Positions 2,611-35,297 of a DNA stretch of 54,239 nucleotides are shown here, one piece after another. The stretch is from a virus (lineage: Duplodnaviria > Caudoviricetes): positions 1 through 54,239 of IMG/VR virus record IMGVR_UViG_3300049070_000135, one strand, 5' to 3'. The first letter of the stretch is position 1, and every line of letters begins with the position of its first letter. Made by a program: the position numbers and the translations under genes. The notes under the pieces are model-generated. The model saw only the letters and a list, made by a program, of their open reading frames with translations, had not been told where the DNA came from and did not search any database.

Positions 2611-3267
2611 ATGCCACTTTACGAACGACTCGCCCACACACAAGAGCCGTTCATCACGCTCCACGAGTTCGCGTCCTTCGTGGGGGAAATCCTGGCCGGC
2701 AACTTCGACGTCGCCGGCGCGGCCGCCAAGTTCAACCTGGACGCGGGCGAACAGGCGGAACTGACGACGCTTTTGGGCAAGCTGACCGAGCCGCCCGAGT
2801 TCTACCCGCTGGGGGGCCTGGTCACGCTGACCAACGTCGGCGCCGCCTACGACGGGATCGCCGCCGCCAAGGGGTTGGGCTTCGTCGGCGTCAACGTCGA
2901 GGGCATTACCGAGGTTATCTTCCGGGTGCGGTACAACAAGGTCGGCACCGGCACGCTTTCGTGGCAGTTGTGGAACGAGACCGAGGGCCAGGAGGTCGGC
3001 GTCATCAACGACGCCGCGGCGGCCGGTGACAACAAGGACCAGTCGGTCACGGTCACGCCCGGCGCGCCCCTGACGGGCGGCGTCAAGCTGCTGCGCCCCC
3101 GGGTGAAGTCCACCGTCGCCGCGGACGACCCGGTCTACTACGGCAGTTGCCTGCTGGTCCGAAGGGCCAGGCGCCCGACCAGTTTCGGCCTGCACGAACT
3201 GCTCATGCTACTGCACCACGGCAACTACACGGTCGCCGGGTTCAAGGCCCGCCTGGGGGTGACGTAA
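2611..3267 (+). CDS. hypothetical virion-associated protein
   Basis: GGGGGA RBS, high-GC3 codons, in late operon. Confidence 0.7.
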   Translation: MPLYERLAHTQEPFITLHEFASFVGEILAGNFDVAGAAAKFNLDAGEQAELTTLLGKLTEPPEFYPLGGLVTLTNVGAAYDGIAAAKGLGFVGVNVEGITEVIFRVRYNKVGTGTLSWQLWNETEGQEVGVINDAAAAGDNKDQSVTVTPGAPLTGGVKLLRPRVKSTVAADDPVYYGSCLLVRRARRPTSFGLHELLMLLHHGNYTVAGFKARLGVT

Positions 3268-3268
3268 C

Positions 3269-4567
3269 TTGGCGTTCCCCGACCCCGCCATCGTCACGAC
3301 CGTCCAGCCGACGACGAACACCACGGCGTCGATCACCGGGCTTTCGTTCGCGCCGACCGTGTTGAAGTTGTTCTGGAACGGCAGGACGGCGGACGGGGGC
3401 GCCGCCGACTGTTCGACCGGCATCGGCTTCGCGGCCAACACGCCGGGCGAGGGCACGACCCAGGCGGCGCTGTGGACGACCAGCGACGACAACGTGCCGA
3501 CCAGCGTGGTCAACGGCCGGGTGACGGCCTCGGCCTGCGTCCTCATCACCGCCCCCGACGGCACCGTGTTGGGCAGTGCCGTCGTGTCCAGTTGGAACAG
3601 CGACGGCGTGACGCTCACGTGGTCCAACGTGGACGGCGTGCAGCGACTCGTCAACGTCGTTTGCGAGGGCGGCGACCAGGTGGGCAAGGCGGGCGCCACG
3701 GCCCGGCCCACGGCCACGGGCAACCAGACGGTGACGGTCGGCGCCTTCACCCCGGCCGCGATGTTGGCGGCGACGGCCGGCGACTTCGCCACGGCGCTGG
3801 ACACCAACTTCGTCAACAGTTGCAGCGTCGTCCTGGGGTGTACGGACGGCAGCGGGCAGTGGGCGACGGGCTGGGGCGAGCGGCACGGGCGCGCCGACGG
3901 CGACGGGCTGTCCTACATGCGGCTCGACCAGATGCTCGCCGCCTTCGACGCCGGCGCCGGCGTCATGGCCGAGGCCAACTGGGTCAGCTTCGATTCCACC
4001 AGCGGCGGCCGGTTCACGGTCAACTGGACGGTCGTGAACACGCGGGCGGGCTACTACATCTGGCTGGCCCTGGGCGGCACGGGCATGTCCTACAAGCAGG
4101 GCATGGTGGCCGCCGACACGGATGCGGGCGGCCAGTCCGTCACCGGGGTCGGCTTCCGCCCGCAGGCGGGGCAGTTCGCCAGCATCCGGGACACGACGAA
4201 CTTCGTGTTGAGCAGTAAGCTGTCCCTCGGCGCGGCGGTGTCTTCTAGCCAGCGGTTCGCCCTGTCCGCGTTCGGCGAGTTCGGCGCGGCCACGCTCAAC
4301 GAATCGCAGTATTTGAAGCGCGACAAGGTGATGCTATTCGGCGCGCCGTCGCACGGTTCGCCCACGCTCGACGGCGAGGCGGATTTTACCAGTTGGGACA
4401 GTGACGGCTATACGTGGAACTGGACCGACGCCAGCCCGGCCGCGTACTTCATGGTCTATTTCGTCTACAAGGGCACGGCGGCGGCCGCCCAGGACGCGCC
4501 CGAACTGCGGGGCAGGCCGATGGGTCTGCGGGGCCAGCAGCACATGAACCAGCTACTCTCACAATAG
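3269..4567 (+). CDS. Gly/Thr/Ala-rich beta-structured virion (fibre/spike-like) protein
   Basis: TTG start 1 nt after upstream stop; repeated 'G.Q.VT.G.F.P' and 'SWDSDG.T..W' units. Confidence 0.65.
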   Translation: MAFPDPAIVTTVQPTTNTTASITGLSFAPTVLKLFWNGRTADGGAADCSTGIGFAANTPGEGTTQAALWTTSDDNVPTSVVNGRVTASACVLITAPDGTVLGSAVVSSWNSDGVTLTWSNVDGVQRLVNVVCEGGDQVGKAGATARPTATGNQTVTVGAFTPAAMLAATAGDFATALDTNFVNSCSVVLGCTDGSGQWATGWGERHGRADGDGLSYMRLDQMLAAFDAGAGVMAEANWVSFDSTSGGRFTVNWTVVNTRAGYYIWLALGGTGMSYKQGMVAADTDAGGQSVTGVGFRPQAGQFASIRDTTNFVLSSKLSLGAAVSSSQRFALSAFGEFGAATLNESQYLKRDKVMLFGAPSHGSPTLDGEADFTSWDSDGYTWNWTDASPAAYFMVYFVYKGTAAAAQDAPELRGRPMGLRGQQHMNQLLSQ

Positions 4568-12357: not shown

Positions 12358-14090
12358 TGACTAGGCAAGATAAATTCTGGGGCCTTTTGGTCTACACCAG
12401 TTGTGCCTGCATGTGTCTGGGCCTGGGGCTGGCGGGTCTGGTCGGGCAGCCCCCCACTGCCCACCGGCCCCCGCCCCGGGCTCCTTTGGCGCAACCCGTG
12501 CCCGACCGGCAGGACTTCGACACCGCCAGGGCGAACCGGGAGGCGATCGAAAATGGACTACTCGGGGGTGGAACGGTACAACTCGACAACGGCACCTACT
12601 TCCTGGACCGATCCGTCAAGCTCGATCAACGACACAGCCGCGGAACCCTGCGGGGACGGGGCGTCGGAACGGTCCTTAGAAATCAGTACACGGCGTCGCC
12701 GTACCTGGACAATTGCACTTTGGTCGCGTACCCCGAGGCGACTGCCTACGTCGAACCCTTCGACGGCCTGGAGGAAGACTCTGTTCACATTCCCGAGACG
12801 TACCCGTGGCTCGCGGGCGTCCCGGTAGACCTGTCGCAGTTCCGCGAGGGTGAGGTCTGCTACGCACTGACCTGGAACGGCCAGTGGTACGACGACAAGA
12901 TGGAGTACAGCCGCCTGGTCATCAGTAAGGTGGACCGGGCGGCCCGCCGCGTCTACTTCGAGCAGGGCGTCCCGTCGGGCACGGAGGACATGCTCAAGTG
13001 GGTCCACGGCCGGGCCGTTCATGACGTGAAGGAGGGGGACGCCTTCGTCACGCCGGTCAAGGAGTCGGACCTGGACCAGTACCGCCGCGGCATGGACGTC
13101 TACGTCACCAGCGGCCCGGAGTTTGGCATGGAGGTCACTGGCGAGTTCCGCAAGGTTACTGGCAAGGAGGGGAAGAAACTCCTCCTGGACCGGCCCGTCG
13201 GCCGGAGCTACGCCAAGGCTTCCTGCCTGCTCGGCCCCTGGCTGGCCGACTTCAACCTGGAAGACCTGGCGTTGGACAACCCGGTCAACCTGGCGTCCAA
13301 CCCGCTGGTGTTGAAGTTCGCCGTCCGCTGCACCCTGCGGCGCGTGGCGTGCGGCGACTGCGTGTCGATCGCCTTCGGCACGGCCGGCTACCTGAACATC
13401 CATGATGTGGATGCGCCGGGCTTCGGCGGTATGGGAATCAACGCCTGCCACGACGTGAATGTACGCAACTGCCGGGTGGCGGGGGTGAACTTCGAGGAGT
13501 CCTGCACGAAGGTCAGCGTGGCCGACACGCTGGTCATGACCGTCAACGGCGTCCACGGCGTGCAGGGACACGTCAACTGTAGCCAGATCGAAATCCGCAA
13601 CTGCCGGGTCGAAGGGTTCGGCTACGACCGGGGCTGGGGCAACGGGTCGCCGTTCTCGATGGGCGGCCGGGACTGTCGGGTCATCGACACGGTGGTCAGG
13701 AACAGCAACCCCGTCACCGGCAGTTACCTCTGGGGCGACAACTTCCAAATCCGGGGCCTGGATTCGGACGTGGGGGTGCTGATGCCGTCCGGGTCCGGGT
13801 GGCGGGTCGCCAACAGCCGCGCCCCCTACTGGTGGCCGTTCCCGACCACGGGCGGCGGTCGCTACACCAGCGTGGACGGGGAGAAGCGGGGCAAGGTCTG
13901 GGAGGGCGACGAACGGGAACAGGCCGACAAGGAAAAGGTCAGGAAGCCGTCTGACGCGGCGGCGCGGATCAAGGCTTACAAGGAACTGGAGGAATTTGCA
14001 CTCGACAGGATCAAACAAGGCGACCCGGTTGCGGTGCGGGAGTTACTTCAACTCCGCGCCGGCCGGTTTCATTTGGGGGGCGATAAATGA
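12357..14090 (+). CDS. pectin-lyase-like right-handed beta-helix protein with N-terminal membrane anchor
   Basis: N-terminal hydrophobic segment; 'AIE...GGGTVQLDNGTYFL...TLRGRG..TVL' and repeated Asn/Cys ladder strands. Confidence 0.75.
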   Translation: MTRQDKFWGLLVYTSCACMCLGLGLAGLVGQPPTAHRPPPRAPLAQPVPDRQDFDTARANREAIENGLLGGGTVQLDNGTYFLDRSVKLDQRHSRGTLRGRGVGTVLRNQYTASPYLDNCTLVAYPEATAYVEPFDGLEEDSVHIPETYPWLAGVPVDLSQFREGEVCYALTWNGQWYDDKMEYSRLVISKVDRAARRVYFEQGVPSGTEDMLKWVHGRAVHDVKEGDAFVTPVKESDLDQYRRGMDVYVTSGPEFGMEVTGEFRKVTGKEGKKLLLDRPVGRSYAKASCLLGPWLADFNLEDLALDNPVNLASNPLVLKFAVRCTLRRVACGDCVSIAFGTAGYLNIHDVDAPGFGGMGINACHDVNVRNCRVAGVNFEESCTKVSVADTLVMTVNGVHGVQGHVNCSQIEIRNCRVEGFGYDRGWGNGSPFSMGGRDCRVIDTVVRNSNPVTGSYLWGDNFQIRGLDSDVGVLMPSGSGWRVANSRAPYWWPFPTTGGGRYTSVDGEKRGKVWEGDEREQADKEKVRKPSDAAARIKAYKELEEFALDRIKQGDPVAVRELLQLRAGRFHLGGDK

Positions 14091-14446
14091 GTGTAATCGA
14101 GGACAAGGCCCAGAAGGTCGCACGGAAGCTGGAACCTGTGGACCCGGGGTTTGCGTTCGACCCGGCGATGATCTTGGTGATCGCCCAGGTCGTCATGGAG
14201 GTCATCAAGGCGATCCAGGCGTGCAAGAAGCCGCCCGCGGAACTGCCCGCAATGGCCAAGCGGCCTGGCGTGCTGGGCCGCTGGCACGTCCGCCGCGCCA
14301 TTCAAAAGGAAATGAAGGATAAAGAACTTCGCGGCATGGTCGGCCCCCGGATGGTCAACGCCGTCCTGGACGTGGGGTCGGAAACGACTGAAGAAGAGGC
14401 TAAGGCGATGTTCGCCGAGGCCGACGCGGAAGGGGGTCGGCCGTGA
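14087..14446 (+). CDS. hypothetical protein with one hydrophobic helix
   Basis: ATGA overlap; FDPAMILVIAQVVMEVI. Confidence 0.7.
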   Translation: MSVIEDKAQKVARKLEPVDPGFAFDPAMILVIAQVVMEVIKAIQACKKPPAELPAMAKRPGVLGRWHVRRAIQKEMKDKELRGMVGPRMVNAVLDVGSETTEEEAKAMFAEADAEGGRP

Positions 14447-15174
14447 GGAAGGCTGCCCTGACATTACTGTTCCTGGCCGGGGGTGCCTACGCCCAGGACG
14501 CCCCGGTGGCCAAGCTGTCCGGCCCCGCGACCGCGGCGGTCGGCGAGGCGATCCTCCTGAACAGCGGCGGGTCCGTGGGCAAGGTCAAGTTCGGCGTCGC
14601 CCGCGGCCCTGTCAAACTTCCGATCGTCACCCTGAAGTCCGACGACGGGTCGATGGTCGTCGGCCTGGCCACGGCACCCGTGGCGGGTAACTACGTATTC
14701 TTCGTCGTGTCCATCGGGATCACCCCGGCCGGCGCGGACGTGCCCCTGATGGACTTTGCCTTCCACGACGTGCGGGTCGGTGGCGCGCCGCCCCCCGACC
14801 CGCCTAAGCCGCCGGACCCGCCTGTCCCGCCGCCCCCTGGTCCGGACGACAAGCCGCCGATCCCCGCGGAGGGGTTACACGTCCTGATAGTCTACGACGA
14901 CGCCCAGATGGCGTCCCTGCCGCAGTCGCAGGCGGACGTGCTGAAGTCCACGGAAATCCGGGAGTACCTCCGGGCCAAGGGCAACAACTACCGGGTCTGG
15001 AAGACCACAACCAACCCGGCCGGGGCGCCGCAGGTCTGGCAGGACGCCTTCGCCCGCCCTAGGAAGTCTACACCCTGGATCGTAGTCAGTCGTCCGGGTA
15101 AAGGAGGATATGAAGGCCCATTACCTGCTACTATTGCGGATACGATGACCCTTTTGAAAAAGTACGGGGATTGA
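14443..15174 (+). CDS. exported two-domain protein with Pro-rich linker
   Basis: signal peptide MRKAALTLLFLAGGAYA; PPPDPPKPPDPPVPPPPGP linker. Confidence 0.8.
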   Translation: MRKAALTLLFLAGGAYAQDAPVAKLSGPATAAVGEAILLNSGGSVGKVKFGVARGPVKLPIVTLKSDDGSMVVGLATAPVAGNYVFFVVSIGITPAGADVPLMDFAFHDVRVGGAPPPDPPKPPDPPVPPPPGPDDKPPIPAEGLHVLIVYDDAQMASLPQSQADVLKSTEIREYLRAKGNNYRVWKTTTNPAGAPQVWQDAFARPRKSTPWIVVSRPGKGGYEGPLPATIADTMTLLKKYGD

Positions 15175-15182
15175 TAGATAAC

Positions 15183-15216
15183 GATAGGAAGATATGCTAC
15201 TACATATCTTCCTATC
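15183..15216. promoter_or_regulatory. perfect 14-bp inverted repeat overlapping a putative HNH promoter
   Basis: GATAGGAAGATATG-ctacta-CATATCTTCCTATC; TTGATA(15171)-16 nt-TATGCT(15193). Confidence 0.6.
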
Positions 15217-15246
15217 TGAACACACCAACCTGTTTAGGAGGTTGCT

Positions 15247-15714
15247 ATGCCTGAAGACATTCTACAAAGGATTTTGCGACGTGTTAAAGTCAACGACAAG
15301 ACTGGTTGTTGGGAGTGGCAGGGCCATCGAAATTCTTGGGGGTATGGTGTGATTAAAATAGGGGGTCGTAAGGGGAAGTATCGATCCACACACCGTGTCA
15401 TGTATGCTTTGCAAATGTCTGAAATTCCTCTTGGTTTTTGTGTGTGTCATAAGTGTGACAATCCGGCGTGTGTTAAGTTGGATCATTTATTCCTTGGGAC
15501 GAACGCGGACAATGTAGCTGATCGGGAACGCAAGGGCCGTGGCGGTAATCATAAAGGAGAATTGAACGGGCGTTCTAAGTTGTCTGTCGAAAAGGCTAGT
15601 GAAATAAGGAAGAGATACATTCCAAAGAGGGTTACAAGATTACAACTGGCTGTCGAGTTTGGGGTGTCGGTGGGCACAATTAAAAAAGTGCTTGCTGGAA
15701 TGAGATGGCTTTAA
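15247..15714 (+). CDS. free-standing HNH homing endonuclease with C-terminal HTH
   Basis: CWEWQG..GYG..THR..VCHKCDNPACV..DHLFLGTNADNVAD; AT-rich relative to genome; AGGAGG RBS. Confidence 0.92.
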   Translation: MPEDILQRILRRVKVNDKTGCWEWQGHRNSWGYGVIKIGGRKGKYRSTHRVMYALQMSEIPLGFCVCHKCDNPACVKLDHLFLGTNADNVADRERKGRGGNHKGELNGRSKLSVEKASEIRKRYIPKRVTRLQLAVEFGVSVGTIKKVLAGMRWL

Positions 15715-15725
15715 CCTGGGGTTGG

Positions 15726-15788
15726 GGGCCACTGCCGGCCACCATCGCCGAAACCATGACACTCTTACGCAAATATGGAGGGAATTGA
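15726..15788 (+). pseudogene. orphaned duplicate of the 3' end of gene 14443-15174
   Basis: encodes GPLPATIAETMTLLRKYGGN* versus live GPLPATIADTMTLLKKYGD*. Confidence 0.85.
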
Positions 15789-15789
15789 C

Positions 15790-16110
15790 ATGGCCTGGAA
15801 GAAAGGACCGTTGCCGCCCGACACTTGGCACTGGGGCGGTGTCGTATTAGTCGGTGAAGAGGGTTACGGGTTTTACTTCGCAGACTTCCGCGGCGACCAC
15901 ATTCTAATAATCCCCGGCCAAAAAAGGGTCGAAGCCTCCGACGTGGCGTGGTACGACAACAACCTTGAGTTGCCGGATATTCCCAAACCGGAAGGGCCTC
16001 AGCCTCTTATCAGGAAGGGGTTCGACGCATACACCCCGGAGAACGTATTCGGCCATCCTGTCACCCCAAGGGGGTCTGAGAAAGGCCCACCGAATATCGG
16101 AGCAAGTTGA
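15790..16110 (+). CDS. hypothetical protein
   Basis: GGAGG RBS inside the relic; ATG 1 nt after the relic TGA. Confidence 0.7.
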   Translation: MAWKKGPLPPDTWHWGGVVLVGEEGYGFYFADFRGDHILIIPGQKRVEASDVAWYDNNLELPDIPKPEGPQPLIRKGFDAYTPENVFGHPVTPRGSEKGPPNIGAS

Positions 16111-16111
16111 C

Positions 16112-16963
16112 ATGGGACCGAACCGCGGTGAGCCAGTAATTGACGACGACCCGAAGTCGGCCGTCTACGCCTTCCCCGACAACGTCCGCAAGGGGTTGTT
16201 GCCCAGGGACTATCTGGAAACCCCCCGGGATACGTTCCAGGCGTTGCCGTCGGAGATGAAAGTCATCCCGAAGTCGGAGTGGTCCGACCGGATCAAGGAG
16301 CAGGAAAAGAACAAGGCCCGGCTGTCCGACCTCCGTAACGTCGGCATGAACGGGCAGCCGATCCCCTACCTCGACCAGGGATCGAACGGATACTGCTGGT
16401 CCCACAGCACGACACATGCAATTATGGTTGCGCGTGCCGTGCAAAATGAAACATACGTTCCGCTGTCTGCTTACGCAATCGCCGCCATTATCAAGAACGG
16501 CCGCGACGAGGGCGGCTGGTGCGGACTGTCCGCCAAATTCGCCAGGGAGGTTGGCGTCCCGTCCCAGGAACTCTGGCCCCAGGGCAGCCGCAACTTAAAG
16601 TACGACACGCCTGCGATGCGGGCCAACGCCGCCAAGTACAAGGTGGTCGAGGACTGGGTGGACCTGACGGTCAACGTCTACGACCAGAATTTGACCTTCG
16701 CCCAGGTCGTGACCTGTCTGCTGATGGGCTGCCCGTGCCCGGTGGACTTCAACTGGTGGGGTCACAGCGTGTGCGCCCTGGACGTGGTGGAGGTAGAACC
16801 CGGCAGCTTCGGGCTGCGGATTCTGAACAGTTGGAAGGGTTGGGGCGACAACGGCTGCGGTATCCTCCGCGGCAACAAGGCGATCCCCGACGGCGCCGTT
16901 TCGTTCCGGTTGATATCGCCGTCGATGCAAAAGCGCGGGCGGCGTCGCAAGAAGGCTGCCTGA
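16112..16963 (+). CDS. papain-like (C1) cysteine peptidase
   Basis: DQGSNGYCW (oxyanion Gln and catalytic Cys), GHSVC (His), ILNSW..WGDNG (Asn). Confidence 0.9.
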   Translation: MGPNRGEPVIDDDPKSAVYAFPDNVRKGLLPRDYLETPRDTFQALPSEMKVIPKSEWSDRIKEQEKNKARLSDLRNVGMNGQPIPYLDQGSNGYCWSHSTTHAIMVARAVQNETYVPLSAYAIAAIIKNGRDEGGWCGLSAKFAREVGVPSQELWPQGSRNLKYDTPAMRANAAKYKVVEDWVDLTVNVYDQNLTFAQVVTCLLMGCPCPVDFNWWGHSVCALDVVEVEPGSFGLRILNSWKGWGDNGCGILRGNKAIPDGAVSFRLISPSMQKRGRRRKKAA

Positions 16964-30651: not shown

Positions 30652-33234
30652 ATGGCGGAAGAACAACCACTCCGGGCGTTGACCGAAAAGGCTTACCAGC
30701 GCCTCATGAAAGTGCTGTGGTGGGCCGAGGCGGCGATGCGCGAACAGGGCATCGACTTCGGCGACGTGGTCGGCGAATACGACCACGAACACGTCCCGCC
30801 CGCCAACTACGTCCGGGTCACGGGCAGCCCCGCCACCGGCGACGCCACGCACGGCATCTACCCCGGCCAATTCGTGTCCCTGGACGGCACCGGGGGCACC
30901 GGCCCCTGGTCTGACTACGACCCGACCCAGTTCTGCTACGTCCGCGACCTGACCGGCGCCCCGCTGATGCTGTCTTCCAGCGCCACGGCCGGGCCGATCT
31001 ATAAAGGCAACGTCTACGCCAACCACGGCACCGGGGCGCTGGTACTGGTCGGCGGGGGCGGCTGCACGGGCGGGACCTGCCCGACCGGCGCGACGACCGA
31101 AACCGCCTGCCAGCACACCCTGATCTATGACACCTGCAACGGCGAGGTCGTCACCCGCTCGACGCTGGTGATGAACTTCGGCGTGCCGGCGAAGTTCTGC
31201 CTCAGTCAGTCCACCGGGCCGGCCCCCCCGTGCCCCACCGGCCCGACCGGCCCCGCCGGCGCCGGCATTGTCACCAAGTCCCGCGCCGTTCCGGTCGTGG
31301 TCGGCGAATCGGTCTTGGTCGGCAAGACGACCCTCGGCAGCGTCATGGACGTGTCGGTCAACGGCGGTACGGCCTTCCAGGGCAGCAAACTCTACAACGT
31401 CGCCCACCGCTACGACGACAGCGCCCCCACGACCTGGCGGGAGGTGCGGCCGATCACGTCGTTCCTGCCCTACGGGACCGGCCACGACTTCGCCCTGGAC
31501 GTGATGCGCAACGGTTCCGAACAGTCGTACCGCATCCGGCGGGTGGCCGGCACCACCGCCGCCACGGCCAGCATCGACTTCCTGCGGGGCGGGGCCGTGA
31601 CCGACCTGTCGGGGACGGGGGCCACGGCGGTCAGCGGCTACGCCCCGAACATGGTCATCACCCAGGTCGGCGACGCCGTGGCGGTCGGCAAGACATCGAC
31701 CGACCTGCCGACGTTCCTGCTCGACGTGGGGTCGGCGGGCCTGGCCGCCACCGGCGGGGTCGCCTTCAACACGGACAGTTCCAACGTCGGCACCCGGAAC
31801 ATCCGCTGGCGGCGGTCCGGGTCGCCCCGCTTCGACGTGGTCTACGAGGCCGTCACGGACACGCTGTTCGTGACCGACGGCGTGTCCACGCTGTACAGTT
31901 GGTGGTCGCGCACGGTCGGCTTCGTCGCACCCTCCATCTACATCGACTCGAACGGTGGTGCCAATTCGGTCAAGGTCAGCCAACTCGCCAACACCGCCGG
32001 GCTGGGCGTCGTGTCAATGCAGGCCAGCGGCGCGGCCCAGGCGGTCACGCAACTGGAACTGCTACCCCAGGGGAGTTCTGTCGGCGAGACGCGGCTGCGC
32101 CTGTGCAACTTCGCCCTGCGGGACCACAGCGGGCAGTTGTCACTTTCGGTAAGCGGGGCGACCGCGTTCTTGCAGTCGGTCACTTCGGGCATCGGTACGC
32201 CCGTGACGCTGTTCCGCAACGAGATGCCGACGCTGTTCACTGCCGGGATCACCTGCACCACGGCGACGTTCAGCGGCGCGGTCGTGTTCAACAACACCGT
32301 GAACGTCAACGGGGCGTTGACCTGCACGGCCAGCGCCAGCTTCACCGCCCCCGTGGCGTTCACCAGCACGGGCACGGCCAGCTTCGCCAGCCGGGCCGCG
32401 TTCACGAACAGTTTCACCCTGGAGTCCGCGGGCGGCGGCAACCCGCTGCTGTTCCAGCAGACCAGCGCCGGCAACACGTTCAGCATTCTGACCCTCAAGC
32501 CGACGACCGGCAACGCCGTCTGCGCCGTCAACGTGCTGCCGCTGGGCACGCAGGACTCGACGCAATTGTTACTGGGCAACGGTCCCGACATCAGCAACCT
32601 CGGCTGCGTCCGCCTGTCGGTGGACGGCGCGACCGGGTACATGGAGTCCGTCACCACGGGTACGGGAACGCCGGTGGCGATATTCCAATGGGTCATCCCC
32701 ACGCGGTTCAGCGGCAACCCGGTGACGATGGACGTGCCGGTAAACTTCACCAGCACGGGCACGGCCACGTTCGCCGCCATAGTGAACCTGGAGCACAGCT
32801 TTACCCTGGTAACGCCCGGATTCGGGGGTAAGCTCAAGGTCATCAACGTCGGCGACTTTACGTCCGCCGCCTTCCGCATCCAGCCGGTCAGTGGCAACCT
32901 GCGGCAAGACCTGGACCTCCTGCCCAGCGGCACGAACGACAGTTGCCAACTACACCTCTACAACGGTTCGGATTCGGCCAACGCGGGTTCCCTGCGGCTG
33001 AAGGCGGAGGGCGCGACGGGGTGGATGGAGTCCGTCACGGGCGGGACCGGGACGGTCATGGACCGCTTCAACTGGGACATCGACATGCGGTTCCTCCAGG
33101 ACGTCGGCTTCAACGGCACCGTGCCCATCGCCAAGCCCACGGTCACGGGCAGCCGCGGCGCGAACGCGGCGTTACAAAGTTTGCTCACTGCTCTAGCTAA
33201 CTATGGCTTAGTCACGGACAGCACAACGGCTTAA
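30652..33234 (+). CDS. tail fibre / receptor-binding protein
   Basis: Gly/Thr-rich; short collagen-like GPTGPAG; three internal repeats; C-terminal KPTVTGSRGANAALQSLLTALANYGLVTDSTTA. Confidence 0.8.
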   Translation: MAEEQPLRALTEKAYQRLMKVLWWAEAAMREQGIDFGDVVGEYDHEHVPPANYVRVTGSPATGDATHGIYPGQFVSLDGTGGTGPWSDYDPTQFCYVRDLTGAPLMLSSSATAGPIYKGNVYANHGTGALVLVGGGGCTGGTCPTGATTETACQHTLIYDTCNGEVVTRSTLVMNFGVPAKFCLSQSTGPAPPCPTGPTGPAGAGIVTKSRAVPVVVGESVLVGKTTLGSVMDVSVNGGTAFQGSKLYNVAHRYDDSAPTTWREVRPITSFLPYGTGHDFALDVMRNGSEQSYRIRRVAGTTAATASIDFLRGGAVTDLSGTGATAVSGYAPNMVITQVGDAVAVGKTSTDLPTFLLDVGSAGLAATGGVAFNTDSSNVGTRNIRWRRSGSPRFDVVYEAVTDTLFVTDGVSTLYSWWSRTVGFVAPSIYIDSNGGANSVKVSQLANTAGLGVVSMQASGAAQAVTQLELLPQGSSVGETRLRLCNFALRDHSGQLSLSVSGATAFLQSVTSGIGTPVTLFRNEMPTLFTAGITCTTATFSGAVVFNNTVNVNGALTCTASASFTAPVAFTSTGTASFASRAAFTNSFTLESAGGGNPLLFQQTSAGNTFSILTLKPTTGNAVCAVNVLPLGTQDSTQLLLGNGPDISNLGCVRLSVDGATGYMESVTTGTGTPVAIFQWVIPTRFSGNPVTMDVPVNFTSTGTATFAAIVNLEHSFTLVTPGFGGKLKVINVGDFTSAAFRIQPVSGNLRQDLDLLPSGTNDSCQLHLYNGSDSANAGSLRLKAEGATGWMESVTGGTGTVMDRFNWDIDMRFLQDVGFNGTVPIAKPTVTGSRGANAALQSLLTALANYGLVTDSTTA

Positions 33235-33911
33235 ATATGCGTCCAAACTCGGCGATTTCGGATCATGCTAATCAGACTCGGGGTGACTCCGAGGCGGTCG
33301 GCCTGTTGTCTATTCGACACTCCATTGGCAGCGTCACGGCGGATTTTTCTAACCAGTACAACAGTCAGTTTGGATCGTCCCTGTCGTTCGCCGCGGGCCT
33401 TTCCGTGGCCCTTACGGGGATTGCCGTCAATCGGCGACAATTCGAGGTGCCCCCAAACTTGGCCCCTGCCGATCATTCCGACCAGGGAGCGGCTAACTCC
33501 GTATCTCTGGGCTATCTGGGTTTGGGACTCGCCTGCCGCGTAGGCGGCGTAAACGGCCCGTACAACACCTTCGGTAAGCTTCGCCTGGGAACACCGTTCC
33601 CCGCGAGTGGACCGTCCCTTCGCGGACATGTCGGCCATGTTGTCGGCGTGGGTTCCCAAGAACAGGTGATCGGGTCGGATACAATGTTTGGTGTCACAAC
33701 GATGCAACACGAACATGCCGGTGGGTATCCCCCCGTGGGTGATTATCCAAGCGAGTCTGTGGGCCGTGATGTCGTATCGGCGGCAATTTCTCTTGATGCA
33801 GTACCGCCCATACCCATTGCGAAGCCGTCTCGATTGCCAAAGCCAGCAGGTTTCGGTTTTGTGGGCGTGCGTCCAGAAACGGATTTTCACCGATTCATCA
33901 ATAGGAATCAT
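33231..33911 (-). CDS. free-standing HNH homing endonuclease with two C-terminal HTH-like repeats
   Basis: RFW..., CWLWQ..GYG..AHRLAW..VLHRCDTKHCIRPDHLFLGTHADNMAD. Confidence 0.92.
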   Translation of the reverse strand: MIPIDESVKIRFWTHAHKTETCWLWQSRRLRNGYGRYCIKRNCRRYDITAHRLAWIITHGGIPTGMFVLHRCDTKHCIRPDHLFLGTHADNMADMSAKGRSTRGERCSQAKLTEGVVRAVYAAYAAGESQTQIAQRYGVSRSLVGMIGRGQVWGHLELSPIDGNPRKGHGKARGERQGRSKLTVVLVRKIRRDAANGVSNRQQADRLGVTPSLISMIRNRRVWTHI

Positions 33912-33917
33912 GTGATA

Positions 33918-33946
33918 ATTGTAAGGTGGGTTGGGTTGGTTGTCAA
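33918..33946 (-). promoter_or_regulatory. near-consensus sigma70 promoter giving a leaderless HNH mRNA
   Basis: minus strand TTGACA-17 nt-TACAAT-6 nt-ATG(33911); no SD. Confidence 0.75.
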
Positions 33947-33953
33947 GTTAATT

Positions 33954-34025
33954 AACAATACCCTGGCCAACCTACTCACAGCCCTTGCGGACAACGGACT
34001 CATTATTAACAACACGACGGCCTGA
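33954..34025 (+). pseudogene. orphaned duplicate of the tail fibre 3' end
   Basis: encodes NNTLANLLTALADNGLIINNTTA* versus live NAALQSLLTALANYGLVTDSTTA*. Confidence 0.8.
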
Positions 34026-34028
34026 GTC

Positions 34029-35297
34029 ATGATCGTTGACCTCAGCAGCGGGTGTTGTCACTGTTGCGACCCGTCTGGTGGTACTAGTGGCGTGCCATTG
34101 GCTACAGCTTGCCCGTGCGTGAACCAACAATTGCGTTGTATGAGTGTTAGTGCCGCCTCGGGTGCGGGCACTGGTGGTGGTAATTTAACTGGAATCGAAT
34201 CTGCACTTATTCACACTTTTAGGCGATTCCCGAGCGCGACCGTTCGCGTTTTCGACGCGCGATTTGCTATCAGCTATGTTGACCCGGTAACTGGTAAGAA
34301 TCTCTGCCTAAGTGTTCATATGGTGGGTAATGTTGGTTGTGTGAGACTTCCCGGTGATCCGCCGGGTCGCGGCCACGTTCATATTACTGGGAGTTGGGTC
34401 GATTGCTGGCCACCTGTACCAATAAGTAATGACCCCACAGGCAACTGTGTCGGAGGCGGATTAGTTTGGGGCGCGCAAGGTGCCTTTCAAGGTACCATTC
34501 GCCACGATGCTTTTGAGTACATCTCCGAAGAGGTTAATATTGTCGATTGCGAGCCGGCTCGCAATCTCACACCATTCAATGTCGCTATCCGAATTCGGGA
34601 GAAGTCTAACTGTGACGACTCCGGCCCAGGACTTGAACCACCTCAGTTGTTTGCCATTAGTGACCGCCCGTTTACTATGCAATTCACGCCAACTCTCAAC
34701 GAAGACTGCGCACCCCCTCTAGACGACCCGAATTATCCTTGGTTACTTATGGATGAGAACGACAACGCAATTGGTCCGCCTAGTACGGACGGAGGTAATA
34801 TTGGCGGTATTATTAATAACATTAATTCGACCAACCCGTGTTGTATCGGTGGATTTCTAGACGGCGATGACGTTCCTGGCCCAGACCCCGGCCCCCCTGT
34901 CGTTCCCCCCGACCGCGTACTCACTCCTTGCTGCCCGGTCGAAAGCGCGACGGTTAGCAAGACTCTGACTGTGGTCGCCGACACGATGGGCGTGTGCCCG
35001 GCACTGGAGTTCTCCATCGGGATCGCCTACAGTAATGCCCTGCGGGCCTGGGTGGGCACGGCAATCAGCGGTGGCAATTTCATCACCGTCATCTTCTGGT
35101 GCGAACCCGGAGGGACCTGGTTCATGAACGTCTACTGCGCGGGCATCCTGATCTGGGCGGCGTCGGGCGCGATGTTCACCGGCAACAGTTGCCCCGTGGA
35201 CATGACGGCGGGTCCGAACACTTCGGACACGTCACCCTGCTGCGCCAGCGGCGTCCCCCTCATCATCCGGGTCTTCGACCCGACCATCGAGCCATGA
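34029..35297 (+). CDS. Cys-rich tail-associated protein
   Basis: GCCHCC N-terminus, many Cys; 5' part has atypical AT3-rich codons. Confidence 0.7.
   Translation: MIVDLSSGCCHCCDPSGGTSGVPLATACPCVNQQLRCMSVSAASGAGTGGGNLTGIESALIHTFRRFPSATVRVFDARFAISYVDPVTGKNLCLSVHMVGNVGCVRLPGDPPGRGHVHITGSWVDCWPPVPISNDPTGNCVGGGLVWGAQGAFQGTIRHDAFEYISEEVNIVDCEPARNLTPFNVAIRIREKSNCDDSGPGLEPPQLFAISDRPFTMQFTPTLNEDCAPPLDDPNYPWLLMDENDNAIGPPSTDGGNIGGIINNINSTNPCCIGGFLDGDDVPGPDPGPPVVPPDRVLTPCCPVESATVSKTLTVVADTMGVCPALEFSIGIAYSNALRAWVGTAISGGNFITVIFWCEPGGTWFMNVYCAGILIWAASGAMFTGNSCPVDMTAGPNTSDTSPCCASGVPLIIRVFDPTIEP

What the first reader, a model, noticed from the sequence alone, without database searches (positions are those of the whole stretch)
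15112..15788. HNH 'gene-end replacement' cassette no. 1: recoded 3' end, then nuclease, then orphaned original end
Seen: gene 14443-15174 ends GPLPATIADTMTLLKKYGD* in AT-rich codons (cca tta cct gct act att). Directly after the HNH stop, 15726-15788 encodes GPLPATIAETMTLLRKYGGN* with more genome-like codons (ctg ccg gcc acc atc gcc). That relic still supplies the RBS and TGA-c-ATG junction of the next gene. Inference: the mobile unit is [synonymously recoded substitute gene end + promoter + HNH]. It inserts inside a gene without splicing, restores the protein and removes its own target site. Known analogy: homing endonuclease genes that duplicate gene 3' ends in fungal mitochondria (atp6/atp9, rps3). 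Two independent examples in one phage window suggest a general strategy.
Basis: partly seen in the sequence, partly recalled or inferred. Interest (0 to 1): 0.85.

Follow-up and report, generated by a model that had tools for sequence, protein, structure and literature searches.

The report
Selfish nuclease gene replaced a gene end
A selfish DNA-cutting enzyme gene sits near the end of a conserved phage gene, brought a foreign copy of that gene's last codons so the protein stays whole, and left the old end behind as a relic, a layout known from yeast and fungal mitochondria.

Summary
Gene X (14443-15174) ends GPLPATIADTMTLLKKYGD*. An untranslated second copy, GPLPATIAETMTLLRKYGGN*, lies at 15726-15788, 11 nt after an intact HNH_3 endonuclease gene (15247-15714). 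The copies share 16 of 18 residues but only 2 of 18 third codon positions.

X drops from GC3 0.90 to 0.46 at about 15049, matching the HNH gene (0.43). So about 42 codons of X plus the HNH gene look imported together.

All 25 related loci have X followed by gene Z. None has an HNH gene or a second X end. One relative, L168, has X-Y-Z with X's own end abutting Y, as the relic does here.

A stop-anchored flank screen found the same layout at the window's second HNH gene and at 1 of 133 other homologue loci (L083). It recurs but is rare.

Best reading: endonuclease-driven replacement of a gene end by break repair off a diverged donor. This matches WHO elements of yeast FBA1 (PMC7282813) and fungal mitochondrial endonuclease genes. 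Cleavage, target site and onward mobility are untested, and no empty allele was found in four soil runs.

Earlier notes of this scan describe look-alikes on other DNA.

The parts
14443..15048 (+). Native part of gene X (signal-peptide protein of unknown function, conserved C-terminal domain), GC3 0.90
15049..15174 (+). Substitute 3' end of X: last ~42 codons including the stop, GC3 0.46. It is translated and ends ...GPLPATIADTMTLLKKYGD*. The left edge is known only to about +/-15 nt, from the GC3 shift.
   Evidence: the closest homologue P0002 is the best match upstream (75%) but not in this stretch (68% against up to 76% for others)
15183..15216 (+). Perfect 14-bp hairpin between the X stop and the HNH gene. 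Role unknown (terminator, insulator or regulator of the nuclease gene).
   Evidence: I1; 98-nt fold -31.4 kcal/mol, z -5.1, 0 of 200 shuffles as good; no T-run on the + strand
15236..15241 (+). AGGAGG Shine-Dalgarno of the HNH gene, 5 nt before its ATG. The predicted fold partly pairs it in a small stem.
15247..15714 (+). Free-standing HNH_3 endonuclease gene (155 aa) with a C-terminal helix-turn-helix, GC3 0.43
15715..15725 (+). 11-nt junction between the HNH stop and the relic. It resembles neither the substitute copy nor L168 at this place.
   Evidence: read by eye
15726..15788 (+). Relic of the earlier X end (20 codons plus TGA), not part of any called gene. It carries GGAGGG (15777-15782) and the TGA-c-ATG junction of gene Y.
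   Evidence: L168 shows the same end-to-Y abutment
15790..16110 (+). Gene Y (106 aa, unknown function), right flank of the insertion, GC3 0.65
16112..16963 (+). Gene Z (283 aa). It follows X in 25 of 25 relatives; GC3 returns to 0.83.

Best explanation
A free-standing HNH homing-type endonuclease gene entered the 3' end of gene X by repair of a DNA break, using a diverged, lower-GC relative that already carried the nuclease gene as the template.

Shown:
- X is a chimera. Native codons run to about 15049. From there a foreign version of the last ~42 codons continues in frame to a normal family C-terminus.
- After it come a hairpin, a ribosome-binding site and the HNH gene, all of the same low-GC composition.
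- Eleven bases after the HNH stop, the previous last 20 codons of X survive untranslated. They are still joined to the ribosome site and start of gene Y.

Inferred:
- The enzyme cut or nicked an HNH-less genome within or near the stretch now duplicated, around the GYE|GPLP codons.
- The left end of the break was resected by about 65 nt and copied the donor's X end plus the HNH gene.
- The right side was closed in one of two ways. Either it paired with an X-end fragment already present behind the donor's HNH gene (a self-propagating unit, as in WHO elements), or it was joined illegitimately at the break (a first-generation event). I cannot tell which; I put them at about even odds.

Consequences of the layout:
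- The protein stays whole without splicing.
- The expressed copy differs from the old end at 19 of 54 bases. If the target lies there, the carrier would no longer present it intact. This is inferred.
- The two copies are too unlike (65% identity) to recombine easily and delete the insert. This is inferred.
For: Duplication and reading frames.

Nuclease identity and intactness: HNH_3 above Pfam's cut-off. PHROG endonuclease and HNH families at E 6e-35 to 1e-25. All 22 invariant columns of an 8-sequence alignment are kept. Homologues occur in 1,406 phage records; listed rows are annotated as HNH endonuclease, and the T7-group gene 7.7 row as 'predicted homing endonuclease'.

Foreign composition: GC3 is 0.90 in X codons 1-202, 0.46 in the X end, 0.43 in HNH and 0.83 in Z. 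Windows with GC3 <= 0.45 are 1.03% of 14,389, and both HNH-adjacent gene ends are such patches.

The copies diverged as working genes. 16 of 18 residues are identical, but only 1 of 15 identical non-Met residues uses the same codon. An untranslated copy diverging in place would not keep its coding sense.

Sporadic presence: X is followed by Z in 21 of 21 viral loci, in L168 and in 3 of 3 genome loci. None has an HNH hit there or a second X end. The best intergenic score is 31, against 86 here.

Native junction: in L168 the X stop overlaps the Y start, with no HNH gene. The closest X homologue, P0002, ends ...YGGN like the relic.

Recurrence: the stop-anchored screen gives this locus 86, the window's second HNH 60 and L083 99. 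The null maximum is 40 and the other 132 loci score <= 34. Those pairs are also diverged, at 43/66 and 37/69 bases.

No intron: the only Rfam hit is a sub-threshold hairpin match.

Mechanistic precedent: WHO model (PMC7282813, abstract and section 10). Co-conversion and one-sided illegitimate repair in T4 homing (PMC2988022, passages).
Against: - No close relative with an empty site was found. X and Y used as single queries gave nothing in viral contigs. In the four soil runs laid, every contig piece covering the HNH stretch fits the HNH-bearing form, and no joint skipping it was reported. Contigs do not show rare variants.
- The nearest empty arrangement (L168) is only 40% identical in X.
- No HNH homologue above 50% identity was found in 58 viral or 80 metagenome loci. 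The cassette hairpin occurs nowhere else in viral contigs. So neither a donor nor recent spread is seen.
- The relic is not genome-like (GC3 0.60). The tract right of the HNH gene stays below genome GC3 as far as 16110. Y also has lower GC3 than its neighbours in L168 (0.66 against 0.77 and 0.80), so this does not settle the right-hand history.
- Only 1 of 133 other homologue loci shows the layout.
- The evidence of different ancestry for the substitute end is weak, resting on 37 residues.
- Enzyme activity, target site and self-immunity are untested.
Confidence: 0.7

Rival explanations
1. Ordinary mosaic recombination between two phages, not started by the nuclease. A block from a lower-GC relative (X end plus a passenger HNH gene) was joined in by one homologous and one illegitimate crossover, and the HNH protein has nothing to do with the site.
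For: The X-Z interval is a variable spot: L011 and L018 carry 1.1-1.8 kb of unrelated small genes there, and L168 carries Y. Other low-GC3 patches occur in the window without a nuclease gene beside them, such as 16400-16480 in Z. No cleavage data exist.
Against: Both HNH genes of the window, and a third in L083, sit exactly between a substitute end and a relic. A passenger gene does not predict that. HNH_3 genes of this kind are annotated in phage records as homing-type endonucleases. Break-induced repair with co-conversion is their known behaviour (PMC2988022, passages).
Confidence: 0.17
2. Tandem duplication of the X end in place, later separated by an HNH insertion, with the two copies diverging in this genome.
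For: It would give the same gene order.
Against: The untranslated copy keeps 16 of 18 residues and an open frame, while 16 of 18 third positions differ. Divergence in place would hit all codon positions of a non-coding copy alike. The GC3 step at about 15049 joins the expressed copy to the HNH gene.
Confidence: 0.03
3. The HNH gene lies in a self-splicing intron or an intein, or is bypassed in translation, so that the 'relic' is the real last exon of X.
For: Many phage HNH genes are intron-borne (PMC2988022, passages).
Against: No intron family was matched in 14800-16200 at E <= 1. Only 72 nt and 11 nt of non-ORF sequence flank the HNH gene. X already reaches a complete family C-terminus and a stop before the HNH gene. 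The HNH gene is a separate ORF with its own ribosome site, so it is not an intein.
Confidence: 0.02
4. Chance resemblance of a short peptide.
For: The copy is only 20 codons long.
Against: E = 3e-5 within the record. Score 86 against a null maximum of 40 in 400 non-cognate pairs. The relic matches the family C-terminal consensus and stops at the family's normal end.
Confidence: 0.01

Closest known systems
WHO elements at the yeast aldolase gene FBA1 (Coughlan et al. 2020, eLife, PMC7282813: abstract and section 10 read; 2026 bioRxiv 10.64898/2026.08.13.744650: passages read)
   Same: The order is full-length host gene, then nuclease gene, then a fragment of the host gene's 3' end. The 3' part of the expressed gene has a different origin from its 5' part. 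The authors define the unit as the nuclease gene plus the resistance-conferring 3' end upstream of it, with the downstream fragment serving as a homology arm. No splicing is needed.
   Different: The nuclease here is a small HNH_3-HTH protein, not an intein-derived LAGLIDADG-zinc-finger protein. The host is a phage, not a diploid yeast. There is one element, not a cluster. The replaced tract is about 42 codons, against about 140. Cleavage and allele specificity are untested here.
Free-standing endonuclease genes of fungal mitochondria with partial C-terminal duplications of atp6, cob or cox1 (PMC6279837 and PMC7487136: passages read). The Allomyces atp6 case is recalled, not read.
   Same: A partial C-terminal copy of the neighbouring gene lies beyond free-standing endonuclease ORFs, creating a pseudogene fragment.
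   Different: Those are GIY-YIG or LAGLIDADG enzymes in organelle genomes. The passages read describe the duplications but not the mechanism.
Intron-less homing and marker exclusion by T-even seg and mob endonucleases (SegF, SegG, MobE). Review PMC2988022: passages read.
   Same: A free-standing phage endonuclease gene lies beside its target gene. Repair of the break copies the nuclease gene together with the donor's flanking coding sequence (co-conversion).
   Different: As described in those passages, homology on both sides replaces the recipient's sequence cleanly. No stranded second gene end is described there.
[quoted passage not shown] Known to me only through the review passage in PMC2988022; the paper itself is not held.
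   Same: Homology on one side only, with a microhomology junction on the other, lets an endonuclease-bearing element enter a new context. This would give a first-generation relic.
   Different: That was an engineered intron system. I could not check whether duplicated exon ends were reported.
Endonuclease genes that split phage genes (mobE in Aeh1 nrdA, mobA in T4 gene 60). Review PMC2988022: passages read.
   Same: A free-standing nuclease gene sits inside a coding region without an intron.
   Different: There the host gene is cut into two expressed pieces. Here the gene is kept whole by a spare end and the old end is silent.

Membership tests
Phage free-standing HNH (HNH_3) homing-type endonuclease genes | HNH beta-beta-alpha-metal motif present and intact | tested here: met
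   PF13392 at 33.6 bits against a cut-off of 24.8. All 22 invariant columns kept, including H49, H68, C70, D71, H80 and N89.
Phage free-standing HNH (HNH_3) homing-type endonuclease genes | Separate DNA-binding module | tested here: inconclusive
   HTH_7 at E 0.0013 and 19.2 bits, below the 23.8 cut-off. The C-terminal part aligns with homologues.
Phage free-standing HNH (HNH_3) homing-type endonuclease genes | Own ORF and ribosome site between host genes, not in an intron or intein | tested here: met
Phage free-standing HNH (HNH_3) homing-type endonuclease genes | Sporadic: absent from the same place in relatives | tested here: met
   0 of 25 related X-Z loci have it
Phage free-standing HNH (HNH_3) homing-type endonuclease genes | Site-specific cleavage of the nuclease-less allele, followed by gene conversion | not testable with these tools
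   Needs enzyme assays or co-infection experiments
WHO-type gene-end-replacing homing elements | Nuclease gene directly after a full-length host gene, and a 3' fragment of that gene after the nuclease gene | tested here: met
WHO-type gene-end-replacing homing elements | The 3' part of the expressed host gene has a different ancestry from its 5' part | tested here: met
   GC3 0.90 against 0.46 with a step at about 15049. Phylogenetic support is weak: P0002 is best upstream (75%) but not in the end (68% against up to 76%).
WHO-type gene-end-replacing homing elements | Nuclease belongs to the WHO/HO/VDE intein-derived LAGLIDADG family | tested here: not met
   It is HNH_3. So this is not a WHO element; it only works like one.
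WHO-type gene-end-replacing homing elements | Presence/absence polymorphism among close genomes | tested here: inconclusive
   In 4 of 4 runs laid, the pieces covering the HNH stretch fit the HNH form and no joint was reported.
WHO-type gene-end-replacing homing elements | Allele-specific cleavage: the old end is sensitive, the carried end resistant | not testable with these tools
   -
Intron-borne or intein-borne homing endonucleases | Ribozyme core, or an in-frame intein around the nuclease ORF | tested here: not met
   No intron family at E <= 1 in 14800-16200. A stop codon ends X before the HNH ORF.
Integrase-borne elements that carry a spare 3' end of their target gene (e.g. e14 or phage 21 at icd; recalled, not read) | Integrase gene and att repeats at the ends | tested here: not met
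   The insert holds a single ORF, the HNH gene. There are no long direct repeats at its ends; the copies are only 65% alike.

The most novel reading that the evidence does not exclude
Phage HNH endonuclease genes form a class of homing elements that invade coding sequences without an intron or intein, by carrying a diverged, cleavage-resistant spare gene end and using the stranded old end as a homology arm. This would be a prokaryotic-virus counterpart of yeast WHO elements. The scattered low-GC3 patches on conserved motifs elsewhere in this genome could then be footprints of earlier rounds whose nuclease genes were lost.
Probability: 0.35. Interest if true: 0.7.

Novelty: new variant of a known kind. 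Interest (0 to 1): 0.55.

Why it matters
Homing endonuclease genes are usually said to enter coding regions only inside introns or inteins, or else to sit between genes or split them. This locus is a clean natural footprint of another route: replace the gene's end and strand the old one. That route has been worked out experimentally only for yeast WHO elements.

If phage HNH genes do this as self-propagating units, it would explain some chimeric gene ends and short foreign patches in phage genes. It would also point to where each enzyme cuts, because the start of the relic marks the likely break. That gives a computable handle for predicting targets of the many uncharacterised phage HNH proteins.

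As a single locus it remains a variant of known homing biology. My searches found no paper describing this layout in phages. Those searches cover only the held open-access library.

Tried and rejected
Searches that found no close relatives or copies:
- X as a single query found nothing in the phage collection or in viral contigs.
- Y as a single query found nothing in viral contigs.
- The L083 helicase found only itself in viral contigs, and only relatives at 31% identity or less among the 15 phage records listed, all records being under 60%. So no empty site could be shown for L083.
- The gene after cassette 2 (34029-35297) has no viral-contig relative.
- The hairpin pattern has no other copy in viral contigs.
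- No donor was found: the best HNH homologue is 54% identical over a partial match in viral contigs and 50% in metagenome contigs.

Sequencing runs:
- Twenty soil runs from 17 studies hold the stretch. I laid four of them, choosing those with a word share of 0.54-0.76 in the hope that they lacked the insert.
- The lower share turned out to be patchy coverage. No joint was reported. The pieces that cover 15046-16238, 14000-15635, 15256-16173 and 15697-15847 fit the HNH form with 0 or 1 differences.
- Parts without cover prove nothing.

Screens:
- The first, unanchored flank screen gave off-frame, Arg/Pro/Ala-rich false hits (L049, L148, L085). I replaced it with the stop-anchored screen, which drops peptides that are more than 60% R/P/A/G/S.
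- Five of the 138 loci were left out for short flanks.

Other negative or uninformative results:
- No solved structure matched by sequence; the best E-value was 0.07, to a ribosomal protein.
- Rfam gave only a sub-threshold FinP-like hit on the hairpin.
- I tried to use composition right of the HNH gene to tell a WHO-like homologous right junction from an illegitimate one. I gave this up because Y also has lower GC3 than its neighbours in L168.
- I did not ask for any supplementary files. Those of the WHO and mitochondrial papers may hold cases that bear on how common such layouts are.
Full report
WHAT IS THERE. The window is a 54,239-base uncultured virus record, linear, estimated 70% complete. 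Gene X (14443-15174, 243 aa) has a signal-peptide-like start, a proline-rich linker and a conserved C-terminal domain. It matches no Pfam or PHROG family. It ends ...GYEGPLPATIADTMTLLKKYGD*.

After 72 nt comes a 155-aa ORF (15247-15714). The 72 nt hold a perfect 14-bp hairpin (15183-15216) and AGGAGG (15236-15241). The ORF is HNH_3 (33.6 bits against a cut-off of 24.8), with a weak C-terminal helix-turn-helix. It hits PHROG HNH and endonuclease families at E 6e-35 to 1e-25. It keeps all 22 columns that are invariant in an alignment of 8 sequences: itself, the window's second HNH and six homologues.

Eleven nt after its stop, 15726-15788 reads GPLPATIAETMTLLRKYGGN*. The TGA is followed by c and the ATG of gene Y (15790-16110). 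GGAGGG at 15777-15782 lies inside the relic.

IS IT REAL. Over 18 aligned codons, 16 residues and 35 of 54 bases are identical. First, second and third codon positions match 16, 17 and 2 times of 18. tblastn of X against the record finds the second copy at E = 3e-5.

I compared the last 25 residues before every stop codon on the two sides of HNH genes. This pair scores 86, and the highest of 400 non-cognate pairs scores 40. The relic also fits the family's C-terminal consensus (...GYEGPLPATVxETLTLLKKYGG) and stops where the family stops.

WHICH COPY IS FOREIGN.
- GC3 is 0.90 in X codons 1-202, then 0.46 from about 15049 to the stop. It is 0.43 in the HNH gene, 0.60 in the relic, 0.65 in Y and 0.83 in Z.
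- Windows of 20 codons with GC3 <= 0.45 make up 1.03% of 14,389 windows in the window's likely genes. The ends of the two genes that adjoin the two HNH genes are both such patches.
- The foreign tract is therefore longer than the duplicated part. About 42 codons of X were replaced, but only the last 20 old codons survive.
- The closest X homologue, P0002, is 75% identical to X in the 67 residues before the switch, where all others are <= 52%. In the last 37 residues it drops to 68%, where others reach 73-76%. It ends ...YGGN like the relic. This incongruence is weak because the stretch is short.

THE TWO COPIES DIVERGED AS WORKING GENES.
- Among 24 relatives' X ends (276 pairs), the mean is 8.8 of 18 identical residues and the maximum is 15. 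Identical residues use the same codon in 900 of 2,413 cases (0.37).
- The window's pair has 16 of 18 identical residues, but only 1 of 15 identical non-Met residues has the same codon.
- With codons drawn independently from the usage of the HNH gene and of Y or native X, 3.4-3.6 matches are expected, giving P(<=1) = 0.09-0.10.
- So the 'recoding' is what full synonymous saturation gives. It needs no special process.
- It does exclude duplication and divergence in place, because an untranslated copy would not keep its coding sense.
- The unusually high protein identity is noted and not explained. It could reflect the need for a compatible end.

RELATIVES.
- X has 108 homologues in the protein collection.
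- An alignment-based scan gave 21 viral loci. In 21 of 21, X is followed by Z, the 283-aa gene at 16112-16963.
- Three genome loci (two Gemmataceae, one Rhodospirillaceae MAG) show the same order.
- None of these has an HNH hit there. None has a second X end between X and Z; the best score is 31.
- L011 and L018 carry 1.1-1.8 kb of unrelated small genes in the interval.
- Y has 17 homologues. One viral locus, L168, has X-Y-Z with the X stop overlapping the Y start (TAATG) and no HNH gene.
- That is the predicted empty arrangement, but only at family level (X 40%, Y 60%, Z 44% identity).

NO CLOSE EMPTY ALLELE. Twenty soil-metagenome runs from 17 studies hold the stretch. In the four that I laid, contig pieces fit the HNH-bearing form with 0 or 1 differences and no joint was reported.

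HOW GENERAL.
- The window's second HNH gene (33231-33911, minus strand; 35% identical) lies between the tail-fibre-like gene and a second copy of its end. The fibre-like gene's last 20-25 codons turn low-GC3. The second copy (33954-34025) lies 3 nt before the next gene. The copies share 13 of 23 residues and 37 of 69 bases, and score 60.
- I screened 138 loci with HNH homologues, 58 viral and 80 metagenomic, of which 133 had usable flanks. One, L083, has the same layout. There a helicase gene ends ...RDENVSVLQYSGYNRDRIYKKEWNR*, followed by a homologous HNH gene, followed 4 nt later by RDDRVSVLQYSGYNRDRIYRKKGW* abutting the next ATG. The copies share 18 of 22 residues and 43 of 66 bases. That HNH gene is in two ORFs, broken in a G-run.
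- The other 132 loci score <= 34.
- The layout is therefore recurrent, in three genes and two phages, but rare in this nuclease family. It is not a general strategy on present evidence.
- Earlier notes of this scan describe similar layouts on other DNA. They are leads, not evidence.

MECHANISM. The anatomy is shown; the events are inferred. It matches the model worked out for WHO elements of yeast. There the unit is the nuclease gene plus the resistance-conferring 3' end of FBA1 upstream of it. Homing replaces the recipient's 3' end and pushes the old one downstream, where it serves as a homology arm (PMC7282813, abstract and section 10).

Phage precedent exists for the parts. Free-standing seg and mob endonucleases copy themselves together with the donor's flanking coding sequence. 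'One-sided' homing with an illegitimate junction also occurs (PMC2988022, passages).

I infer the following sequence:
- A break near the GYE|GPLP codons of an HNH-less X.
- About 65 nt of resection on the left.
- Copying of the donor's X end and HNH gene.
- Closure on the right, either against a relic already in the donor or by illegitimate joining.

Composition right of the HNH gene does not decide between these two closures, because Y has lower GC3 than its neighbours in L168 as well.

Self-immunity is plausible but untested; it would come from a target that is diverged in the expressed copy and truncated in the relic. The same holds for the stability of the 65%-identical repeats against deletion. 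A promoter is not shown. The hairpin is strong (z -5.1) but its role is unknown.

WHAT IT IS NOT.
- No intron was found: Rfam gives only a sub-threshold FinP-like match to the hairpin.
- It is not an intein, because X has its own stop and the HNH gene is a separate ORF.
- It is not an integrase element, because the insert holds a single ORF and has no att-like repeats.
- It is not a WHO element by family, because the enzyme is HNH_3 and not LAGLIDADG.

NOVELTY. The mechanism is known in yeast nuclei. The layout is known in fungal mitochondria (PMC6279837 and PMC7487136, passages). Co-conversion by free-standing phage endonucleases is textbook. My searches found no description of a stranded gene end behind a phage endonuclease gene. 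The 2026 WHO preprint mentions bacteriophages only in a general sentence. These searches cover only the held open-access library.

VERDICT. I rate this a new variant of a known kind, of moderate interest. It is a clean, well-controlled natural example with a second case in the same genome and a third elsewhere. It lacks an empty allele, a donor and any enzymology.

Noticed in passing
window 33160-34025: Second HNH gene (33231-33911, minus strand) lies between a low-GC3 substitute end of the 860-aa fibre-like gene and a second copy of that end 3 nt before the next gene. The next gene stays at GC3 0.33-0.57 until about 34900, then returns to 0.8-0.9. This is the subject of a separate note (e1-6300728).
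   Followed up: partly
window 15777-15793 and 16099-16115: Two 17-nt stretches, identical at 14 of 17 bases and both ending TTGACATGG, bracket gene Y. Y may itself be an inserted small gene, or the two stop/start junctions may simply be alike. Y homologues sit in other contexts in L167 and L169.
   Followed up: partly
window 16400-16480: Low-GC3 patch (0.35-0.55 against about 0.9 around it) on the conserved Cys motif of gene Z. The crude scan listed 21 such patches, some in doubtful ORFs. They may be gene-conversion footprints (cf. note e1-6300729).
   Followed up: partly
L011 4330-5475; L018 3942-5705: The X-Z interval is a variable spot: these relatives carry 1.1-1.8 kb of small unrelated genes there.
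   Followed up: partly
L083 2788-3442: The HNH gene of the third example is in two overlapping ORFs (2788-3111 and 3080-3442), broken in a run of G. This is either decay or a homopolymer sequencing error.
   Followed up: no
window 15228-15246: In the predicted fold, a 6-bp stem (CAACCU/AGGUUG) covers the 3' part of the HNH gene's Shine-Dalgarno. It could limit translation of the nuclease.
   Followed up: no
L171, L172: X-Z homologues lie in Gemmataceae assemblies; L172 lies in a 4.9-Mb scaffold and so is probably a prophage. An Isosphaeraceae MAG protein (P0092) is also a homologue. The host is therefore probably a planctomycete.
   Followed up: no
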